64,000 nucleotides of DNA from Thermoplasmata archaeon (GTDB lineage Archaea; Thermoplasmatota; Thermoplasmata; Lutacidiplasmatales; UBA184). Of the stretch, positions 5,840 through 18,350 are shown one piece after another. A program made the position numbers and the translations under genes. Under the pieces are notes generated by a model, which was not told where the DNA came from, made no database searches, and worked only from the letters and a program-made list of their open reading frames with translations. The stretch's first letter is position 1. Every line of letters starts with the position of its first letter. Location: NCBI GenBank assembly GCA_028864975.1, contig JAGWLG010000004.1, forward strand, positions 82,192 to 146,191. The letters are read 5' to 3'.

Positions 5840-8800
5840 ATGGCGATGGTTGAACGGGAAGGGGGTTCCCCGCGAGTGCGAGGACCCTTCCGTGCGCTTC
5901 TGCGGAACATGAGGCTCTCTCCCAGGGCCGTCGTGGTCTTCGTGGCGCTCGCCTCGCTGGTCGTTTCGACCTGGGCGCTCACTCCCTACCTACCCGTTTC
6001 CGCCGCGAGCGGGACCTTGGACGAGCTCGCCTCCTCCCATGGAGTGCTGCCCTCCTGGCAAGCCGCGCGCGCGATGCACCTCTCCGTGACCGACCCCCTG
6101 GGACTCCTGGGGTACGACGCCGCCACCGTGGAGGGGCTCTCCAACGAGCGGGCCCTGGCGTCGAGCACCCCCGAGACCCTCGGGATCGCGCTCATCCCCC
6201 GCGACCCCGCGGGACTGCAGCAACTGGACCTCGCGGTGAACGAGCCGGGCAGTCCCCTTCTCGGTCACTATCTCACCCCACAGCAGTACCAGGAGCGATT
6301 CGCGCCCACGGTCGCCGCGGAGCAGCAGGTGGAACAGATCCTCCGCGCTGGCGGGTTCACGGTCACCTACGCTTCCGCGGACCGCAGCTTCGTCCAGGTC
6401 GAGGGGACCGCGGGGGCAGCGAACGCGCTGTTCTCGACCGAGCTGGTGGCGGGAACGTACCAGGGCCGCTCGGAGGTCGTCCCTTCGACCGCCCCGACGC
6501 TCCCTTCGTCGCTCTCCCCCTACGTCCTCTCCGTGACCGGGCTTGAGGTGAACGTCGCGCCGTTCTCCTTCGCTCCGCTCTGGTCGCACGCGATCACCCC
6601 CTCCTCCAGCTCGACGTGTCTGCTCACGTGCAGCACGATCTACCCTGACTGGACCCACTTCATGTACGACCTCGACAAGCTCTACAACAACACCGCGAGC
6701 GCGGGGCCCCACTTCGCCCAGACCTCGACGATCGGGATCCTCCTCTGGGGTGGTAGCTACGGGGGCTTCTCTCCCAACGACATCCAGCAGTACGCGCAGG
6801 GGCTCTACTGGGGGCCCCCCTTCACCTACACCCCCTATCCCATCGACGGAGCCGCGCCCCCGGGGCCGAACGCCCCCAGCGACCCGAGCCTGGCCCCCAT
6901 GGAGCTCACGCTGGACATGGAGTGGTCCGAATCCCAGGCCCCCGGCGCTTCGCTCGATGTCGTCTATGTGCCGGAAGGAACCGCGGCAAACAACTACTCC
7001 CCGAACCCGGTGGAGCTCGAGCATGGGATCGCGGTCCTCGTGAACCTCTCGGGGCTCACGGTGATCACGCAATCCTTCGGCGCTCCCGAGGGGGACCAGG
7101 CGTTCCAGAGCTTCTTCGACGCCGAGTTCGTCCACGCGGGCGCTCTCGGGATCTCGGTCTTCGCCGCTTCCGGGGACGATGGCGGATCTACCGGCTCCAT
7201 CTCGAACGGATGCACCCAGAACCCCCAGGTGGACTATCCTGCGGCTTCTCCGTACGCGACCGCGGTGGGCGGCACGGCCCCTACGGTGAACGCGAGCGGA
7301 GGGGGCGGTCCATCGGGGACCGTCGGGGTCGACACCGAATCCGCCTGGCAGTTCAGCGGCGGCGGCTACTCCACCTCCTACGGGCTCCCCCCGTGGCAGC
7401 GCGGCGGGAGCGCGTACGCGACCATCATGACCGCCACGTCGAACGCGGGCGCGCGGGGGGTACCGGACGTGGCAGGCCCGGCGGCCGACAATGCCTTCGT
7501 CTACAACGGGGCCCTCCAGGGAGGGGAGGGCACGAGCTTCGCCTCCCCCTTCTGGGCCGGGCTCACGGCGGAGATGGTCGCGGTCCGCGGCGGGGCGCTC
7601 CTGGGCTGGCTCAACCCGAGGCTCTACGCGCTGGGGGCGGCGCAGGACCAGGGGTCGCTCACCCCCGCTCCGTACCGCGAGATCCTTCAGGGCCAGAACC
7701 CCGGCATGGCGGCGAGCTGTCTCTACTATGCCCAGCCCGGGTGGGACGCGGTGACCGGGTACGGGGCGCCGAAGGACGCGTTCAACCTCTACGCCGACCT
7801 GGTCGCGAACTACATCGACCTCAACATCACCTTCAACCCGGATACGGCCTCCCCCGGGAGCACGGTCACCGTCCGGGTCGCCGCGACGAACAGCACGAAC
7901 GGACAGCCGTTCACCTCCGGGACGATCGACCTCAGGATCTTCTCGCTCCCCCAGACCCTCAAGTCGACGCCGCTGCTCACCGAGACCCAGGTCGCTCTGA
8001 ACTCCCAGGGGACGGGGAGCTTCTCGTACTCGATCGACCTGTTCTACAAGTACGGGCATCTGCTCGCGCAGGCCGAGATCTTCAGCGCTCACTCCGTGGG
8101 GAGCACTTCGAGCATCCTCACGGTGACGCTCCTGGGTTCGTGGTACCAGGCGATCCAACCCCTGCTGGCCCCTCCGTGGAACTACCTGTTCTTCGCGTTG
8201 ATCATGGGTCTCGCGACGGCCCTGGGCTGGGTGCTCGGGCTGAGGGCGCCCAGGCCGATCGGGAGCCCCTCGCCCCTTCGGCGATTGCTTCCCGTCCGCC
8301 GGAGGGCCCCGGTGCGAGGTCCGACCCCGGGACCGCCGGTTCCGGTGTCCTATGCAGGAGGTCTAGGAGGACCGAGGAGGCCGTCCGTCGCTGCGCGACC
8401 GGGCCCTGGCGGCCCCCCGAGGCGCGGCCCCGGCCAACGACCCGCCACCCCGCGCCCATCGGGAGGACCTGCGACCGCGGCGCAGCGAGCGAGGCCGCCG
8501 ACCGCGCCAAGCGGCGCACCGACAGGGGCGCCTCGCTCCATGGAGCGGCCTGCCCCAGGGACGGAAGCGCAGGTCGCCCCCGGGGTGACGATGGTCGTCC
8601 CCCCGAAACCCTCGCCCGCGCCGCCATCACCGGTCGAGACGTCCTCCGAGACACCCCCCGCTCCTTCTCCTACCGCGGCTTCCGACGCGCCTGCCGTTCC
8701 GTTGCCGGAGGATGCCACAGCGCCGCCTCCCGCGGCGACCGAGGGCTCCGCCGGGACCGCGACCGCCACGCCGCCCGAGGTCCCGCCCGAGGCGGTCGCC

Positions 8801-13257: not shown

Positions 13258-14955
13258 ATGCCACGTTCCACTCTCTCGACCGAGCGGTTGTTCGGTCTCC
13301 TGGGTCAGCAGCTCTCGGAGTCCGAGCTTCGCGAGACCCTTTTCCGCACGAAGGTCGAGATCGAGTCGCTTAAGGACGGGCTGGTCGAGGTCGAGGTCAA
13401 CGCCGACCGCCTGGACCTTCTCGACGAGGGAGGGCTCGCGCTCGAGCTCCAGGGCGCGATGGGAAAGGCGACGGGGCCGGTCCTCCGCGTGGATGGGGAA
13501 GCGCTCCCCGGGGTCGAGGCGCGGGTGAACGCCTCGGTGGCCCCGCTGCGACCCGAGCTCTCGATGGCGGTGGTCGAAGCTCCCCCAGGGAAGGCCCTGG
13601 ACGAAGGGCTCCTCGAGGAGCTCGTTCGCTACCAGGAACTCCTCCATGCGACGCTCGGTCGGCTCCGTCAGGCGGCGAGCATCGGGCTCTACCCGATCGA
13701 GAAGCTTCGCCCTCCGTTCCACTATGCGATGGAGCCCCTGGGCCAGGTCCGCTTCGTGCCTCTCGGGGGAACCACGGAGGTCTCCGGAGAGGCGTTCTAT
13801 CCGGAGCACGCGATGGCCCGGGAGTTCGGGGTCCTTGGGCGGCGGGAGGACCTGGCCCTCACCTTGAGGGACGACGCGCGCACGGTCCTCTCGCTTCCTC
13901 CGGTCCTGAATGCGGCGGGGGCGGGCGAGGTCCGACCCGGCGACCGGCGCGTCCTCATCGAAGCGACCGGGACACGTGCCGCGCGCACGCGGGAGATGGT
14001 GGGATACATGCTGCTGCCCTTCGCCGCCCGCGGCTGGTCCGTCCATCCGGTCCCTGTGCACCGTCCCAGCGGAATGTCTGACGGGACCGAGGTCGTCCGA
14101 CCTCGCAAGGTGCAGGTCCAACCGACGCTCATCTCTCGTCTCCTAGGCTCGCGTCTCTCCTCCGGAGAGGTAGAGGACGCGCTGCAGAAGTCGCGTCTCG
14201 GGGTCGAACGCGTCTCCGGGAGCCTGCTCGCGCTGGTCCCTCCATGGCGCGCGGACATCCTGGCGCCGGTGGACCTCGCGGAGGAAGTGGCGATCGCTCG
14301 AGGGTACGGAAGCTTCGCTCCAATCCTCCCTCCCGCGGTGACCATGGGGCGTCGGCGTCCCGAGCGACGGTACGAATCGCGGTTGGCGGAGGTCCTCCTA
14401 GGGATGGGATATCAGGAGCTCCACACACCCGTGCTCCTCTCCCAGTCCTCCGTCGAGCGGGTCTGCGCTCCAGGAGAGGCGCTCTTCCTGCGCAACCCCA
14501 TCTCCTCGGAGCTCACCCATCTGCGTCCGGTCCTCCGTGCAAGCCTGCTGGATGCCCTCGGACGGAACACGGGGTCGGGATACCCGCAGAAGATCTTCGA
14601 GATCGGTCCGGTCATCGTCCGGGACCCGGAGGGCGAGACGGGGACCCGCACCGAGACCCATCTCGCGCTGGCCGACGCGGGGGAGGGCGCAGGGTTCGCC
14701 CTCGCCGCCGGGGTGGCCGAGCGGCTCTTCGAGGTCCTGGGTTTCAACTCGCCCCGCGAGCCGGCCGAGGCAAGCGGTACGGTCCCGGGTCGCGTCGCGA
14801 AGCTGCGGATAGCCGGGGAGAGGGTCGCCCTGGCGGGGGAAGTGCACCCCGGGGTCCTGGCCGACCTCCACGTGCCGATGCCCGTGAGCTGGGTCGAGGT
14901 GGAATTGACGCGCCTGGAGCAGCTCCGCGGTGTTCTCCCGACTCCCGGCGCGTAG
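13258..14955 (+). CDS. pheT: Phenylalanine-tRNA ligase beta subunit (archaeal type)
   Basis: VNADRLDLL, YQELLHATLGR, PPWRADILAPVDLAEEVAIARGY, NPISSELTHLR; directly after pheS. Confidence 0.96.
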   Translation: MPRSTLSTERLFGLLGQQLSESELRETLFRTKVEIESLKDGLVEVEVNADRLDLLDEGGLALELQGAMGKATGPVLRVDGEALPGVEARVNASVAPLRPELSMAVVEAPPGKALDEGLLEELVRYQELLHATLGRLRQAASIGLYPIEKLRPPFHYAMEPLGQVRFVPLGGTTEVSGEAFYPEHAMAREFGVLGRREDLALTLRDDARTVLSLPPVLNAAGAGEVRPGDRRVLIEATGTRAARTREMVGYMLLPFAARGWSVHPVPVHRPSGMSDGTEVVRPRKVQVQPTLISRLLGSRLSSGEVEDALQKSRLGVERVSGSLLALVPPWRADILAPVDLAEEVAIARGYGSFAPILPPAVTMGRRRPERRYESRLAEVLLGMGYQELHTPVLLSQSSVERVCAPGEALFLRNPISSELTHLRPVLRASLLDALGRNTGSGYPQKIFEIGPVIVRDPEGETGTRTETHLALADAGEGAGFALAAGVAERLFEVLGFNSPREPAEASGTVPGRVAKLRIAGERVALAGEVHPGVLADLHVPMPVSWVEVELTRLEQLRGVLPTPGA

Positions 14956-15021
14956 GGTGCGGGCCGTGCGGCGGGCATCTTCAGGGGGTTGGTGCACGCG
15001 AGTCCCTCCTGGACCTCCCTC

Positions 15022-15062
15022 GCGCCCTTTCCTCGGTCCGCGAAGATTCCCTTCACGGATCC
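15022..15062 (+). repeat. Cassette-boundary-like repeat R0 (41 bp, leader plus hairpin)
   Basis: GCGCCCTTTCCTCGGTCCGCGAAGATTCCCTTCACGGATCC; 32/41 identical to R1, with a compensatory A-T for G-C pair in the stem. Confidence 0.8.
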
Positions 15063-15229
15063 TTCTAGCTCTCCCGTCCACCTGGATCTGGCCCGGTTCG
15101 GATGGAACGGGCGTAGGCGACCTGGAGTCGTCTCCCCCCTCGGACCTGCTCCGTGCGGAGGCGACGGGTCGCCATGCGTGACGCGGGCATGGAAGCCCTA
15201 TGGACACCATGCGCTACCTAGGGAATTGG

Positions 15230-15241
15230 AAATGCTCATTT
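15230..15241. promoter_or_regulatory. Palindromic operator candidate upstream of AbrB antitoxin 1
   Basis: AAATG-CT-CATTT in an AT-rich stretch ~25 bp before GTG 15264. Confidence 0.4.
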
Positions 15242-15263
15242 TTTTGGAGAAACCACCGAGGCC

Positions 15264-15500
15264 GTGGCGGCACCGTCGAAGGTCTCGAAGGGGAATCTGA
15301 CCGTCGTTCCGAAGGACGTTCGTGCGGCCACGGGCATCCACGAGGGTGACATCCTAACTTGGAAGCTGGAGGATGGGAAACTCTTGGTAGAACGACGGCG
15401 ACCACGGACGCTGAACGACATCATCGGTATCGCCCCGCACGGGGGCGATGCTGTCGAGCCCAAGCGAGCAGTTCAGAGGACAGGCCACGCCCTTCGGTGA
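15264..15500 (+). CDS. AbrB/MazE/SpoVT family antitoxin (VapB-like)
   Basis: SKVSKGNLTVVPKDVRAATGIHEGDILTW swapped-hairpin signature; overlaps PIN gene. Confidence 0.88.
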   Translation: MAAPSKVSKGNLTVVPKDVRAATGIHEGDILTWKLEDGKLLVERRRPRTLNDIIGIAPHGGDAVEPKRAVQRTGHALR

Positions 15501-15873
15501 CACATCCTATTTCATTGCCCCGACGGACCCAAGGGATCAGTGGCGCTCCAGGGCGGTCAAGGTCGCTGAGAGGGACCGGGGGAGGCTCAAGGTAACAGAG
15601 TTGGTCATGTCGGAGTCGATCACTACGGTCGGAGCGCACTGTGGGGCGAAGCCTGCCCGTCAGCTGTACGAGTTCTTCTTGGATTCCACGGAGATTCTGT
15701 ACACCACCCCCGACGTCTTCGACGAAGCCATGGACGATCACACGAGATTCGACGGGGCCCTCTCGGTTTCGGATGGTGTAACCGTCGTTGGAATGGCACG
15801 GTCGAAAGACCTCTACGTCGTCTCGTTTGGTTCTGACTTCGATAAGGTTCGGGGGATCCATCGGACCTCCTGA
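15487..15873 (+). CDS. vapC: PIN-domain VapC toxin, possibly attenuated or inactive
   Basis: PFGDTSYFIA, SESIT, SVSDGVTV, VSFGSDF. Expected ATG at 15487 reads ACG, and the usual FD.DF aspartate is Gly. Confidence 0.75.
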   Translation, partial: TPFGDTSYFIAPTDPRDQWRSRAVKVAERDRGRLKVTELVMSESITTVGAHCGAKPARQLYEFFLDSTEILYTTPDVFDEAMDDHTRFDGALSVSDGVTVVGMARSKDLYVVSFGSDFDKVRGIHRTS

Positions 15874-15878
15874 ACCTC

Positions 15879-15919
15879 GCGCCCTCTCCTCGCTCGGTGA
15901 GGACGCTCCTCACGGATCC
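15879..15919 (+). repeat. Repeat R1 (41 bp)
   Basis: GCGCCCTCTCCTCGCTCGGTGAGGACGCTCCTCACGGATCC; stem GTGAGGA/TCCTCAC; 35/41 identical to R2. Confidence 0.88.
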
Positions 15920-15968
15920 AGAATCCATCGCTCCGACCAGCGAGACTTCCGAATCGAGGCGTGAGGGA

Positions 15969-16286
15969 TCATGCTTGGGAGGAAAGGTAGCGCCCATCCG
16001 GAGGATGTAGACTGTGGAGGTCGACGTAAACGGTCTCGTGCGGTCCGAAGATGATGAACACCACTTCCATCCCATCCATGGCATACATCGCTCGCCACTC
16101 CTTGCCCCTGCACAGCGCCCAGACGTTCTGGTATCCCCAGAGTTGATGGATGTTCACCGTGGGAGTCCGGGTCCGAGGATCCTGAGCAAGGACGTCGAAA
16201 CGGTCGTTGAAGTAGTTCCGCACGACTCGAGGCAAGCGGTCGAAGCTCTGCCCCGCGATGGGCCGGGCGAACCGCACCCGAGACAT
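15969..16286 (-). CDS. RelE/ParE-superfamily-like toxin
   Basis: 105 aa: FDRLPRVVRNYF..LAQDPR..IHQLWG..WRAMY..VFIIFGPHETVY follows the RelE/YoeB pattern; TGATG overlap with the upstream gene. Confidence 0.7.
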   Translation of the reverse strand: MSRVRFARPIAGQSFDRLPRVVRNYFNDRFDVLAQDPRTRTPTVNIHQLWGYQNVWALCRGKEWRAMYAMDGMEVVFIIFGPHETVYVDLHSLHPPDGRYLSSQA

Positions 16287-16522
16287 CAGCGAGACCGCTT
16301 CGGTGCGGTCAGTCCTCGTGACTGGCGGAACTCCTCCAGAGACTCCTGGGGGAGAGCGAGGGCCCATTGGAGATCCCGACGGAAGTAGTCCGGCGGGATC
16401 TCGTCCATGAACTCCTCGATCACCTCAGCGGGGGTCTTTCCGGCGATCTGGTAATCGAGGAGGCGTCGCCGAACGGAAACCGGGAGGCTGATGGTCGTTG
16501 GGCGCTCGCTGGAGGTGGGCAT
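16286..16522 (-). CDS. Ribbon-helix-helix-like antitoxin
   Basis: PTTISLPVSVRRRLLDYQIAGKTPAEVIEEFMD; stop overlaps the toxin start. Confidence 0.72.
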   Translation of the reverse strand: MPTSSERPTTISLPVSVRRRLLDYQIAGKTPAEVIEEFMDEIPPDYFRRDLQWALALPQESLEEFRQSRGLTAPKRSR

Positions 16523-16528
16523 GGGGAA

Positions 16529-16563
16529 CTCATGAAGTGCATGAGATATATGGCTTACATGAG
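16529..16563. promoter_or_regulatory. Operator/promoter of the RHH-RelE module
   Basis: CTCATG-N5-CATGAG inverted repeat (16529-16545), ATATAT box (16546-16551) and a third CATGAG at 16558. Confidence 0.55.
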
Positions 16564-16582
16564 GCGCTTCAAAGAGCTTGTG

Positions 16583-16623
16583 GCGCCCTCTCCCCCGTCC
16601 GTGAGGAGGCTCCTCACGAATCC
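16583..16623 (+). repeat. Repeat R2 (41 bp)
   Basis: GCGCCCTCTCCCCCGTCCGTGAGGAGGCTCCTCACGAATCC; 8-bp stem CGTGAGGA/TCCTCACG. Confidence 0.88.
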
Positions 16624-16796
16624 CCGTTTCGGCCATTGCCCCCGACCTACGGCCCGGAGGTGGAGGCCCGTGCCACGCATCGGATCTCTTTCCTGCGGCG
16701 CCCCCGGCCATGGGCCCTTCGTCCTCCCGGGACCGTCTCACACGTTGCGAACCACGGGGGGTCTCTCGCCGCGAGGCACCCTTCCGTGCAGCGGAG

Positions 16797-16824
16797 GGAA
16801 GTAATGCTTATTAGTAAGACTTCC
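16797..16824. promoter_or_regulatory. Operator/TATA region of AbrB antitoxin 2
   Basis: GGAAGT..ACTTCC inverted repeat enclosing CTTA-TTAG-TAAG, ~20 bp before ATG 16844. Confidence 0.5.
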
Positions 16825-16843
16825 ATCCTAACGCCGGGTTACC

Positions 16844-17092
16844 ATGAGTGCGGTTGGGGTCGGGTCCGTCACCACCAAGGGGCAGGTGACGATCCCCAAG
16901 GAGATTCGGGATGCGCTGGACCTTCACCCGGGGGACAAGGTCGTTTTCGACCTCGAGGGACGCGCTGCCCGGGTCCAGAAGGTCGGCGAGGAGAAGCTGA
17001 GCGACATCCTTGCCCGGATGGGACCCCTGGGTGAAGACGCGGTATCCTTCCAGAGGAGGCTGAGACATGAGTGGAATCAGCGCTCTCCTTGA
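16844..17092 (+). CDS. AbrB/MazE/SpoVT family antitoxin
   Basis: SVTTKGQVTIPKEIRDALDLHPGDKVVF. Confidence 0.92.
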   Translation: MSAVGVGSVTTKGQVTIPKEIRDALDLHPGDKVVFDLEGRAARVQKVGEEKLSDILARMGPLGEDAVSFQRRLRHEWNQRSP

Positions 17093-17516
17093 CACGAACG
17101 TGTTCATCGCCGCCCGGAGTCCTGATGAGCGGCACTACCTGACGAGCAAGGCCGTGCTCGACGGTGCGGACGAGGGCCGGTTCACCGCGGTCATCTCGAC
17201 GGTGACCCTGATCGAGGTTGGCGTGGGGTACCTGAGGGCGGGCACCGCCGAGTTGCGGAAGCAGTTCATGCATCATGTCCAGACCTCACCCAACTTCCGG
17301 GTCGTACCGGTCGATGTCGCGGTGGCGGATGCAGCGGCCATCGTTCGCCACGAGTCGTCCCTCAAGCTGCCCGATGCTGTCCTGGTGGCTACCGCGAGAC
17401 AGGAACAGGCGAGCTGGCTCGTGACCCACGACGACCGGATCTCCAAGCTCGTGAAGAATCCAGGCGTGATCTCGACCGACCGGTTCCTGAGAGAGATCTC
17501 ATCCCACCCCCGGTGA
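17067..17516 (+). CDS. vapC: PIN-domain VapC toxin
   Basis: LDTNVFI, TLIEV, LPDAVLVATA, LVTHDD: all four acidic positions present. Confidence 0.92.
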   Translation: MSGISALLDTNVFIAARSPDERHYLTSKAVLDGADEGRFTAVISTVTLIEVGVGYLRAGTAELRKQFMHHVQTSPNFRVVPVDVAVADAAAIVRHESSLKLPDAVLVATARQEQASWLVTHDDRISKLVKNPGVISTDRFLREISSHPR

Positions 17517-17559
17517 ACGAGCGGCTGAAGCAGTTCCAAGGAGAGCCATGGGGACCCCA

Positions 17560-17599
17560 GCGCCCGCTCCTCTCTACGCGACGAGCAGTCGCGTAGTCC
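17560..17599 (+). repeat. Repeat R3 (40 bp, diverged)
   Basis: GCGCCCGCTCCTCTCTACGCGACGAGCAGTCGCGTAGTCC; same leader and TCC end, perfect 8-bp stem TACGCGAC/GTCGCGTA. Confidence 0.7.
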
Positions 17600-17719
17600 G
17601 ATTCGGCTGCACTCCGCTACGACCATGGCGGGGCCAAGGTCGAGGTCAGCCCTCCGAGACAGCCCCCCTTCAGGGGACGCCCCGAGTGGGCAGGACGTCC
17701 AGTCGAGGGCGGGCGGGTG

Positions 17720-18350
17720 CCCGGGTGCACCGGTGGCAAGTGTTGGGCCTGGGGCTCGCTGGCGGTGAGGCACGTCTACGGTGGGGACGCGAACTACGAA
17801 CTCGCCCCGTCCTACCACAGGTGCCGGCGGCGCGACCATGCCTCCCCTCGTCCCAGCCGGACCGGAGCGCCATCCCGAAGGCCGCGCGAGAAACGATGCG
17901 CGAGCACGACACGCTTCTCGCGGAGCGGGACCGGGCTCGGGACGGGAGGTTCCTGATCTTCAGCACCGACCTCTCCCTGAACGGCTCGGAGATGTACGAG
18001 ACCTACTTCGCGAGTGACGGGATCGAGAAGGTCTTCCGAACGGGCAAGGGCGAGCTTCACCTGGAGCCCATCCGAAAGCAACGGTTGGACCGGATGTACG
18101 CGAGCGCCACGATCCTCTTCACGGCGTGGCTGCTCTGGAGCTGGACGGAGCGGACCCTGAAGCGGAAACTCCCGAAGATGAGCCTCGCCGAGGCGCTGAG
18201 GCTCCTCGAAAAAGAGCCACGGGTGAGGACAGGCGCGGGAAAATCGGTCCGGGAAGGGGTTCCCCGCCTCTCGGGCAAGCAGGACGAGGTCCTCACCGCC
18301 GTCGGGGCGACACGCTACCTGCCTGTGGTGTAAGGCTCACGGAACCCAGG
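17720..18350 (+). mobile_element. Truncated, frameshifted IS1634-like (IS4 superfamily) DDE transposase remnant
   Basis: C-terminal motif GRFLIFSTDLSL..YETYFASDGIEKVFRTGKGELHLEPIR; no N-terminal half; stop at 18333 followed by GGAACCCAGG, a possible right end. Confidence 0.7.

What the first reader, a model, noticed from the sequence alone, without database searches (positions are those of the whole stretch)
15022..17599. Repeat-delimited array of toxin-antitoxin cassettes (integron-like layout, non-attC repeat)
Four direct copies of a 40-41 bp element (15022, 15879, 16583, 17560) share the leader GCGCCC(T/G)YTCC, a spacer, a ~8-bp hairpin and a terminal RRTCC. R1/R2 are 35/41 identical and R0/R1 32/41. 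The stem covaries (GAGG/CCTC vs GAAG/CTTC, and a different perfect stem in R3), so structure is conserved beyond sequence. Each intervening segment (816, 663, 936 bp) holds exactly one complete TA module with its own promoter: AbrB-PIN(+), RHH-RelE(-), AbrB-PIN(+). R2 sits between divergent promoters, which argues against a simple terminator. The element lacks GTTRRRY/RYYYAAC integron cores and is not an AT-rich Xer dif site. It may mark a previously undescribed cassette-capture/excision system inserted after pheT, with its recombinase encoded elsewhere (inference).
Basis: partly seen in the sequence, partly recalled or inferred. Interest (0 to 1): 0.9.

Follow-up and report, generated by a model that had tools for sequence, protein, structure and literature searches.

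The report
Integron-like toxin-antitoxin cassette array in Thermoplasmata
A short repeated DNA site after the pheT gene of this uncultured archaeon marks the joints of small swappable gene cassettes (mostly toxin-antitoxin pairs). Related genomes carry the same cassettes in other orders and places, with the breaks exactly at this site, so it works like an integron but with a different site and no known enzyme.

Summary
The repeats are real. R0, R1 and R2 are strong copies of a 41-45 nt element. R3 is a diverged copy with the same layout. None would be expected by chance.

The element is not a genome-wide repeat. It occurs only in cassette arrays of one Thermoplasmata genus and a few close metagenomic relatives. 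The arrays sit at at least six different chromosomal sites.

Shared cassettes have different neighbours in different genomes, and homology breaks at the 3' end of the leader (GCGCCCTCTCC|TC). Two assemblies that carry the identical toxin differ in cassette content at that point. One array site is empty at gene-order level in this genome. The array has lower GC than its flanks.

I read it as an integron-like, site-specific cassette system. The site is not an attC, not the host dif site (which I located), not a REP element and not a terminator.

The claimed stem covariation does not hold: the arms behave as two palindromic CGYGAGG half-sites. No recombinase was identified; only XerA is shared by all carriers. 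A perfect palindromic version of the site lies in front of a zinc-finger gene family and may be the primary target.

This scan's earlier, unchecked notes report similar integrase-less cassette arrays on other DNA and in this genome.

The parts
13258..14955 (+). pheT (phenylalanyl-tRNA synthetase beta chain), the core gene upstream of the array
   Evidence: Pfam B5 and tRNA_synthFbeta. Orthologues in G001, G002 and G003 are 72-75% identical.
15018..15062 (+). R0, first junction site (attL-like). The leader GCGCCCTTTCC has one mismatch; a full right half follows (spacer, CGCGAAG/CTTCACG palindrome, GGATCC tail).
   Evidence: model score 61.9 bits.
15264..15500 (+). Cassette 1 antitoxin (AbrB/MazE fold). 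A T-run at about 15239-15245 is a possible TATA box.
   Evidence: Pfam PF04014, 27.2 bits; sequence.
15448..15873 (+). Cassette 1 PIN-domain toxin. The match is weak and the start codon is uncertain.
   Evidence: Pfam PF01850, 25.6 bits against a cut-off of 23.6.
15875..15919 (+). R1, junction site between cassettes 1 and 2. It lies between convergent genes.
   Evidence: 66.4 bits.
15969..16289 (-). Cassette 2 toxin of the RelE/ParE superfamily, opposite in orientation to the repeats.
   Evidence: No direct Pfam hit. Homologue P0005 (55% identity) scores 26.3 bits on PF05016. Weak YoeB hit in the PDB. The homologous cassette in L042 has the same opposite orientation.
16286..16522 (-). Cassette 2 putative antitoxin (78 aa, RHH-like by inspection only).
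   Evidence: No Pfam or NCBIfam hit. Position and gene overlap with the toxin.
16579..16623 (+). R2, junction site between cassettes 2 and 3. It lies between divergent genes.
   Evidence: 64.2 bits.
16844..17092 (+). Cassette 3 antitoxin (AbrB/MazE).
   Evidence: Pfam PF04014, 40 bits.
17067..17516 (+). Cassette 3 PIN-domain toxin (PIN2).
   Evidence: Pfam PF01850, 64.5 bits. The cassette is 86% identical in DNA in G001 C33, and its 3' end is present in G003 C49.
17556..17600 (+). R3, last junction site. It has the leader GCGCCCGCTCC, then a diverged right half with its own 9-bp stem.
   Evidence: (21 bits). It matches 18/20 to a sequence downstream of pheT in G001.
17922..18350 (+). 3' fragment of an IS1634/IS4-family insertion sequence that abuts the array.
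   Evidence: 95% identical to G000 C7:5986-6414. NCBIfam transpos_IS1634, partial.

Best explanation
The 41-45 nt repeat is the recombination site of an integron-like gene-cassette system.

**Anatomy**
- Each site has a leader (CCTC)GCGCCCTCTCC-TC, about 4 variable bases, two inverted half-sites CGYGAGG / CCTCRCG about 5 nt apart, and a tail RRTCC.
- A cassette is the DNA from just after one leader to the end of the next leader. It starts with spacer, palindrome and tail, carries one self-expressed module (usually a type II toxin-antitoxin pair), and ends with a leader.

**Proposed mechanism (inferred)**
- Cassettes are cut out and put in by conservative site-specific recombination. Strand exchange lies in the conserved CTCTCCTC core at the 3' end of the leader.
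- This gives a first site made of local DNA plus a cassette right half, and a last site made of a cassette leader plus local DNA.
- The enzyme is encoded elsewhere. It is most likely a tyrosine-type recombinase, because leader, about 6-7 nt and GAGGAG form an inverted-arm core.

**Shown:** the arrays, the reshuffling of cassettes, the precise breakpoints, the several insertion sites, and the difference between assemblies.
**Inferred:** the enzyme class, a circular intermediate, and that a perfect palindrome in front of a zinc-finger gene family is the primary target.
For: 1. Distribution. Copies occur only in arrays: G000 has 3 plus R3, G001 has 2 plus a terminal copy on C33 and 1 on C45, and G003 has 7. 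None were real in 176 other genomes of the family. GTDB species representatives gave only G001 and G003.
2. Further arrays turned up through homologues of the cassette-2 toxin: GCA_027376615.1, ENA ERZ27237563 and Logan SRR13300764, with scores up to 68 bits. A more distant organism (SRR28211892 and others) has diverged copies.
3. Reshuffling with exact breakpoints. The G003 C49 junction matches G001 C33 (PIN2 end) on its left as far as GCGCCCTCTCC. On its right it is identical for about 125 nt to G001 C45 (start of MNT-HepT) from TCGGGG onward. The 'X' cassette shares 224 nt at 90.6% between G001 and G003, starting at the leader, with unrelated DNA upstream.
4. First copies have off-consensus leaders where the array follows unrelated genes: aquaporin CCGACCTCCCC, malQ GCGCTCTGACC, pheT GCGCCCTTTCC. 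Last copies keep the leader and lose the right half.
5. Difference between assemblies. L042 ends in a leader-only copy next to a methyltransferase gene. L043 carries the identical toxin protein and a matching shared gene set and repeats, but has a full site there, followed by further DNA.
6. Empty site at gene-order level. GT4 and purT are about 126 nt apart in G000 C32. In L039 they are separated by a 2.5-kb three-cassette array.
7. Not a duplication. PIN1 and PIN2 barely align (E 0.075) and the two AbrB proteins are 35% identical, while the repeats are 71-85% identical.
8. Conservation. Between G000 and G001 the palindrome part matches at 23/24, while the 175 nt behind it does not align.
9. 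GC content is 0.59-0.65 in the array against 0.69-0.73 in the flanks.
10. The ParE cassette keeps its orientation relative to the repeats in two genomes.
Against: - No recombinase gene lies next to any array.
- No non-Xer tyrosine recombinase is shared by G000, G001 and G003. G001 shows only XerA, although that genome is 85% complete.
- Four contigs of the window's species, two of them inspected, have the same array, so there is no sign of current activity in this species.
- The right half of G001's first copy resembles the MNT-HepT cassette's right half, but the DNA downstream differs. So some breaks also fall at the right edge of the site.
- The spacer differs between otherwise homologous junctions.
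- The dataset is about 20 sites from a few related uncultured genomes.
Confidence: 0.7

Rival explanations
1. The repeat is a functional host element, such as an operator-like palindrome. It was copied together with some modules, and the mosaic pattern arises from ordinary homologous recombination or gene conversion between 45-nt repeats, not from a dedicated site-specific system.
For: Perfect palindromic versions of the leader lie 0-2 nt before the start codon of a zinc-finger gene family at four loci, which looks regulatory. Some homology breaks fall at the right edge of the repeat rather than at the leader. No recombinase was found.
Against: Homologous exchange does not explain how unrelated cassettes each acquired the site. 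It does not explain arrays starting at off-consensus pseudo-leaders behind unrelated genes. It does not explain why last copies keep only the leader. The breakpoint in the best-resolved case maps to about 2 nt. R2 lies between divergent promoters and R1 between convergent genes, so there is no single regulatory role.
Confidence: 0.13
2. The cassettes are Xer-dependent modules, like Acinetobacter pdif modules or IMEX elements. The host XerA recombines the palindrome as a dif-like site.
For: XerA is the only tyrosine recombinase found in all three carrier genomes. The palindrome CCGTGAGG-N5-CCTCACGG shares the outer CCGT/ACGG with the family's dif site, and the leader, 6 nt and GAGGAGG have an 11-6-11-like layout. 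dif modules often carry toxin-antitoxin genes (PMC13141974, PMC6449649).
Against: The family's dif site, CCGTATAA-CTGCTG-TTATACGG, is single-copy and conserved in 16 of 24 family genomes. The repeat lacks its ATAA/TTAT inner arms and has an 8-5-8 rather than 8-6-8 spacing. The sites are all direct, not alternately inverted as in pdif modules. Breakpoints lie at the leader, outside the palindrome. G002 has XerA but no repeats.
Confidence: 0.08
3. The element works as folded single-stranded DNA. A hairpin next to a nick site is used by an HUH-type enzyme (IS200/IS605 or PATE style, or rolling-circle), or by an integron-like single-strand pathway.
For: There is a hairpin 6 nt from the inferred cut. 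R0 and R3 carry stems with changes on both sides. All sites have one orientation.
Against: No Y1 HUH transposase was found in any of the four genomes, and an IS91-type gene only in G003. Covariation is not above chance, and C.A mismatches occur in 5 of 17 copies (and inspection of the sequences). There is one hairpin per junction, not one at each end of an element. Hairpins are weak, z -0.8 to -3.0.
Confidence: 0.05
4. The repeat is a transcription terminator, an RNA-processing signal or a REP-like element.
For: R0 and R1 follow stop codons, and the element contains a palindrome.
Against: No T-run follows the stems, and the terminator scan finds 0 sites. R2 lies between divergent genes. There are only 3-7 copies per genome, all in arrays. 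Rfam gives no hit. No RAYT-type gene is present.
Confidence: 0.02

Closest known systems
Integrons, including sedentary chromosomal integrons, integrase-less attC clusters (CALINs) and the archaeal integrons of Ghaly et al. 2022 (PMC9668308)
   Same: Arrays of small cassettes, each bounded by a directional recombination site. Cassette order and content differ between genomes. Many cassettes are toxin-antitoxin modules with their own promoters, some reversed. Insertion also occurs at secondary sites. No integrase lies next to the array, as in CALINs.
   Different: The site is 41-45 nt and has no R''/R' (RYYYAAC/GTTRRRY) cores. It is not a long imperfect palindrome with extrahelical bases. No IntI-type integrase or attI was found. 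The break lies 5' of the palindrome, so most of the site travels at the cassette's leading end. The family is confined to one Thermoplasmata genus and close relatives.
Tandem accretion of integrase-less att-flanked elements (CIMEs; reviewed in PMC5704250) and tycheposon cargo arrays at tRNA genes (bioRxiv 10.1101/2020.12.28.424599)
   Same: Recombinase-less units in tandem, separated by direct att-type repeats and presumably moved in trans. The last or first site is a hybrid with local DNA.
   Different: The units here are 0.7-3.5 kb single modules. The site is not a tRNA or gene 3' end. No integrase-bearing partner element sharing the site was found. Arrays start at several unrelated genes.
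Acinetobacter pdif (dif) modules moved by XerC/XerD (PMC13141974, PMC6449649)
   Same: Small modules, often toxin-antitoxin, bounded by short palindromic recombinase sites and shuffled between replicons. The recombinase is a host enzyme encoded elsewhere.
   Different: The sites are not like the host dif, which was located here. The sites are direct, not alternately inverted. The arrays are chromosomal, not on plasmids.

Membership tests
Integron / CALIN | attC sites: 57-141 nt imperfect palindromes with R'' RYYYAAC and R' GTTRRRY cores | tested here: not met
   The alignment of 14 copies shows no GTT/AAC cores. The site is 41-45 nt, and only a 7-bp stem pairs.
Integron / CALIN | IntI-type tyrosine integrase with attI at the head of the array (absent in CALINs) | tested here: not met
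   PF00589 hits in G000 lie on contigs C73, C23 and C6, none on the window's contig. No integrase was seen in the stretches inspected next to any of the related arrays.
Integron / CALIN | Array of cassettes, each bounded by a site, with order and content varying between genomes | tested here: met
Xer-dependent modules (pdif modules, IMEX) | Bounding sites resemble the host dif (11-6-11 with conserved inner arms) | tested here: not met
   The candidate dif site CCGTATAA-CTGCTG-TTATACGG is single-copy in G000 C32 and conserved across the family. The repeat shares only the outer CCGT/ACGG.
Xer-dependent modules (pdif modules, IMEX) | Neighbouring sites alternate in orientation (pdif modules) | tested here: not met
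   All copies within an array have one orientation.
IS200/IS605 and PATE elements; REP/RAYT | A Y1 HUH transposase (TnpA or RAYT) in the genome | tested here: not met
   PF01797 gives no hit in G000-G003, which are 85-90% complete.
REP/BIME-type dispersed repeats | Many copies dispersed in intergenic regions | tested here: not met
   There are 3-7 copies per genome, all in arrays.
CIME-type tandem accretion at an att site | Integrase-less units flanked by direct att repeats in tandem | tested here: met
CIME-type tandem accretion at an att site | A cognate integrase-bearing element that uses the same att site | tested here: inconclusive
   None was found in four incomplete genomes, IMG/VR or JGI metagenomes. 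Mobile elements are often missing from metagenome bins.
Type II toxin-antitoxin modules (cassette cargo) | Adjacent small antitoxin and toxin genes of known folds | tested here: met
   AbrB plus PIN twice. ParE/RelE through a homologue. MNT-HepT, VapBC and MNT-HEPN in related arrays. The cassette-2 antitoxin is unassigned.

The most novel reading that the evidence does not exclude
This is a new archaeal counterpart of the integron, with several distinctive parts. It has its own three-part site: a leader plus two CGYGAGG half-sites. Its native primary target is a perfect palindrome in front of a zinc-finger gene inside a multi-copy surface-protein module. Its recombinase is not an IntI and is perhaps of an undescribed kind. 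It would be one member of a wider, undescribed class of integrase-less cassette arrays, which this scan's earlier unchecked notes also report in other lineages and at tRNA-Val in this same genome.
Probability: 0.35. Interest if true: 0.9.

Novelty: new variant of a known kind. Interest (0 to 1): 0.75.

Why it matters
Integrons are the textbook device for collecting and reshuffling genes, and in archaea only canonical attC/IntI integrons have been reported (PMC9668308).

This is an archaeal cassette array with the same logic but an unrelated site and no linked integrase. Its breakpoints are mapped to a few bases in natural genomes. It gives a defined DNA substrate with which to look for the missing enzyme, and with which to test how toxin-antitoxin and other small modules spread in uncultured Thermoplasmata. 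It also adds a well-resolved case to the integrase-less cassette arrays noted elsewhere in this scan.

Tried and rejected
- **Exact-pattern scans.** JGI metagenomes and IMG/VR gave nothing.
- **Hairpin covariation.** Not above chance.
- **tRNA or known RNA origin of the repeat.** No tRNA and no Rfam hit in the window.
- **Recombinase hunt.**
  - PF00589 gives only XerA in common.
  - A serine recombinase is present only in G000 and G002. An IS91-type gene is present only in G003. No Y1 HUH gene was found.
  - The C73 integrase cluster has unrelated repeats of its own.
- **Multi-copy hypothetical family next to the G003 array and the native palindromes.** The AlphaFold2 model shows small domains and long disorder, with no recombinase-like fold. 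The Atlas search was uninformative.
- **Empty-site tests that failed.**
  - The malQ region of G001 is absent from the other genomes.
  - The aquaporin and radA genes are 94 kb apart and inverted relative to each other in G000.
  - In G000 the gene that follows pheT in relatives lies on another contig.
- **Weak model hits in G002 and G001 coding sequence.** These are a conserved gene, not a site.
- **IS110 element of L043.** No other copies were found.
- **HepT look-up by exact sequence.** Not on record.
Full report
**1. The observation**

The window is G000:C104:82192-146191, from a 3.6-Mb, 67% GC assembly in 124 contigs.

- The repeat finder reports one family of three 45-nt direct copies at 15018, 15875 and 16579, with 80% and 71% identity to the reference copy.
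- R0/R1 match at 32/41 and R1/R2 at 35/41.
- A consensus pattern matches twice at up to 3 mismatches, against 0.00 expected.
- R3 at 17556-17600 shares the 11-nt leader. It keeps the same layout (6-nt spacer, stem, 5-nt loop, AGTCC tail) but has a different stem. A model built from 11 full copies scores it at only 21 bits.
- R3 lies exactly where G001 and G003 carry a full copy behind the same PIN gene.
- No further copy exists in this genome at up to 9 substitutions.

Gene content:
- Pfam confirms AbrB/MazE plus PIN for cassettes 1 and 3.
- The minus-strand pair of cassette 2 has no direct hit. A homologue of the toxin at 55% identity passes the ParE_toxin cut-off.
- The antitoxin of that pair is unassigned.
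- A/T-rich boxes lie about 21-36 nt upstream of each antitoxin start. I did not test them as archaeal promoters.

**2. The repeat in other genomes**

- A DNA search of 40 relatives found the repeat in two of three other genomes of the same genus, G001 and G003.
- A pattern search of 180 genomes of the family gave real copies only in G000, G001 and G003. The remaining hits were at the level of the reversed-pattern control.
- The GTDB-wide scan returned only these genomes, which are labelled Thermoplasmata archaeon MAGs.
- Homologues of the cassette-2 toxin led to further arrays. Strong copies occur in GCA_027376615.1, an ENA assembly and a Logan run. Diverged copies with the tail GAAACC occur in another organism.

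Arrays found, each read in the orientation of the repeats:

| Genome / contig | Order of genes and sites |
|---|---|
| G000 | pheT, R0, AbrB-PIN, R1, ParE pair (reversed), R2, AbrB-PIN2, R3, IS fragment |
| G001 C33 | aquaporin, site, AbrB-PIN2, site, X (177 aa), leader-only copy, radA |
| G001 C45 | malQ, site, start of MNT-HepT, contig end |
| G003 C17 then C28 | 470-aa ORF, site, MNT-HepT, site, RelE-like pair, site, 3.5-kb metal-transport unit (CsoR-like, NRAMP, MgtE-like), site, partial X, VapBC |
| G003 C49 | PIN2 end, site, MNT-HepT, site, VapBC, palindromic last copy |
| L042 | MNT-HepT, site, ParE pair (reversed), site, MNT-HEPN (reversed), leader-only copy, methyltransferase |
| L039 | purT, 157-aa gene, site, MNT-HepT, site, ParE pair, leader-only copy inside the GT4 3' end |

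The gene names for the G003 metal-transport unit are my reading of the ORF translations, not database hits.

Arrays often coincide with contig ends: G003 C49, C17 and C28, and G001 C45 and C34. The G002 contig stops 7 nt after its pheT match.

**3. Evidence that the repeat is a recombination joint**

- The AbrB-PIN2 cassette is 86% identical between G000 and G001. Its 3' end is 95% identical between G001 and G003.
- In a three-way alignment the G003 C49 junction follows G001 C33 on the left up to GCGCCCTCTCC. On the right it is identical to G001 C45 for about 125 nt from TCGGGG onward. This places the exchange within about 2 nt at the leader's 3' end.
- The X cassette is shared between G001 and G003 from the leader onward, at 90.6% over 224 nt, with unrelated DNA upstream.
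- First copies behind unrelated genes carry off-consensus leaders: CCGACCTCCCC, GCGCTCTGACC and GCGCCCTTTCC. Last copies keep the leader but continue into local DNA. This is the attL/attR pattern expected from insertion of a circular cassette into a leader-like target.
- Two assemblies that encode the identical toxin differ at the end of the array. L042 has a leader-only copy next to a methyltransferase gene. L043 has a full site followed by other DNA.
- GT4 and purT are adjacent in G000 C32, but in L039 they are separated by the 2.5-kb array.
- Downstream of pheT, G001 has an 18/20 match to R3, reached by 2 of 300 shuffles. This may be the unoccupied site. The left flank does not align.
- The array is not a tandem duplication. 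The two PIN proteins barely align, and the two AbrB proteins are 35% identical.
- GC content falls from about 0.70 in the flanks to 0.59-0.65 in the array.

**4. Anatomy and likely mechanism**

- The best-conserved parts are the leader and the 3' arm with its tail.
- The stem does not covary above chance. The variable position is Y in the 5' arm and R in the 3' arm, and the two vary independently. Two inverted double-strand half-sites, CGYGAGG, would give this pattern.
- The leader's CTCCTC is inverted relative to the GAGGAG of the 5' arm, with about 7 nt between them. The leader, that gap and the 5' arm therefore have the layout of a tyrosine-recombinase core, and the inferred exchange point lies at its edge. 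This is inference.
- Perfect palindromes of the leader (GCG[C/A]CCTCTCCTC, 6-7 nt, GAGGAGAGG) occur four times in G000 and G003, against none for the reversed control.
  - One of them is the last copy of the G003 C49 array.
  - Each lies 0-2 nt before the start codon of a zinc-finger gene.
  - The three that are not part of an array lie 1.3-2.6 kb downstream of a member of a multi-copy hypothetical family.
  - The ORF that precedes the G003 C17 array belongs to the same family.
- In the C49 copy, the zinc-finger gene's first codons read ATGTACGAATCC. This contains the repeat's tail, ACGAATCC.
- I therefore suspect that this palindrome is the primary target from which the cassette site derives, and that pheT, aquaporin, malQ and GT4 are secondary sites.
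- The hypothetical family has no recombinase-like fold in an AlphaFold2 model of mean pLDDT 60.

**5. Which enzyme**

- XerA orthologues are the only tyrosine recombinases common to G000, G001 and G003. G002, which lacks the repeat, has one too.
- I located the family's likely dif site, CCGTATAA-CTGCTG-TTATACGG. It is single-copy and conserved in 16 of 24 family genomes searched.
- The repeat shares only the outer CCGT/ACGG with dif and has a different spacing. Xer use is therefore unlikely but not excluded.
- No Y1 HUH gene was found. Serine and IS91-type genes are not shared by the carriers.
- The enzyme remains unknown. The genomes are 85-90% complete, and mobile elements are often missing from metagenome bins.

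**6. Comparison with known systems**

- The logic matches integrons and CALINs, but the defining attC and IntI features are not met.
- It also resembles tandem accretion of integrase-less att-flanked elements and tycheposon arrays. However, the site is not a tRNA or gene end.
- pdif modules share the idea of a host-encoded enzyme and the toxin-antitoxin cargo, but the site is not dif-like and the sites are not alternately inverted.
- I found no description of this in the paper library.
- Earlier notes of this scan are unchecked by me, except for a look at the C73 contig. They list other cassette arrays in this genome and similar integrase-less arrays in other lineages.

**7. Verdict**

This is a real, comparatively well-supported cassette array with a new kind of junction site. 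The mechanism is inferred and the enzyme is unknown. Novelty: a new variant of a known kind. Interest: 0.75.

Noticed in passing
G000 contig C32:98375-98396 (outside the window): Candidate chromosomal dif site, CCGTATAA-CTGCTG-TTATACGG. It is single-copy and identical in G002 and G003. Close variants occur once per genome in 16 of 24 family genomes searched.
   Followed up: partly
L043:94-1811 (ENA ERZ27237563 k141_2213032): A 1.7-kb IS110-family element (DEDD_Tnp_IS110 plus Transposase_20) is inserted inside a repeat leader at GCCCT[CT]CCTCGG, with CT on both sides. This recalls IS1111 elements that target integron attC sites. No other copy was found.
   Followed up: partly
G000 C8:27999-30700 (L038), G000 C92:29390-32200 (L051), G003 C78:110042-113380 (L052): A recurring module: a multi-copy hypothetical protein family (355-470 aa, no Pfam, patchy across the family, often at contig ends or with in-frame stops), a few variable small genes, a perfect palindrome, a zinc-finger gene, and then (seen in the two G000 loci) a giant surface protein. 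The small genes between the family gene and the palindrome differ between the G000 C8 and C92 loci.
   Followed up: partly
window 17922-18350: A 3' fragment of an IS1634/IS4-family element, 95% identical to G000 C7:5986-6414. It lies just after the array and may explain the lost synteny with the gene that follows pheT in relatives. In G000 that gene is on C20:5610, behind a stretch that looks like a tRNA gene.
   Followed up: partly
G000 contig C73:5000-14000 (L046): A cluster of four paralogous tyrosine recombinase genes with their own 170-300 nt repeats, unrelated to the pheT repeat. The XerA orthologue lies on the same contig at 35573-36043.
   Followed up: partly
L012:10534-11067 (G001 C33, cassette X): The 177-aa cassette ORF resembles an internal part of the 2411-aa surface protein of G000 C92 (shared motif GYGYRY.GEQ). 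It may be a captured gene fragment.
   Followed up: no
G002 contig C12, end at 7888 (L014): In the one genus member without detected repeats, the assembly stops 7 nt after the pheT match. An unassembled array at the same site is possible.
   Followed up: no
window 15448-15873: The cassette-1 PIN gene matches Pfam only just above the cut-off and lacks an obvious start codon near the conserved DTS motif. The toxin may be decaying.
   Followed up: no
L012:11524-14103 (G001 C33): The radA ORF next to the G001 array is 859 aa. I read this as an intein-sized insertion. I did not check it.
   Followed up: no
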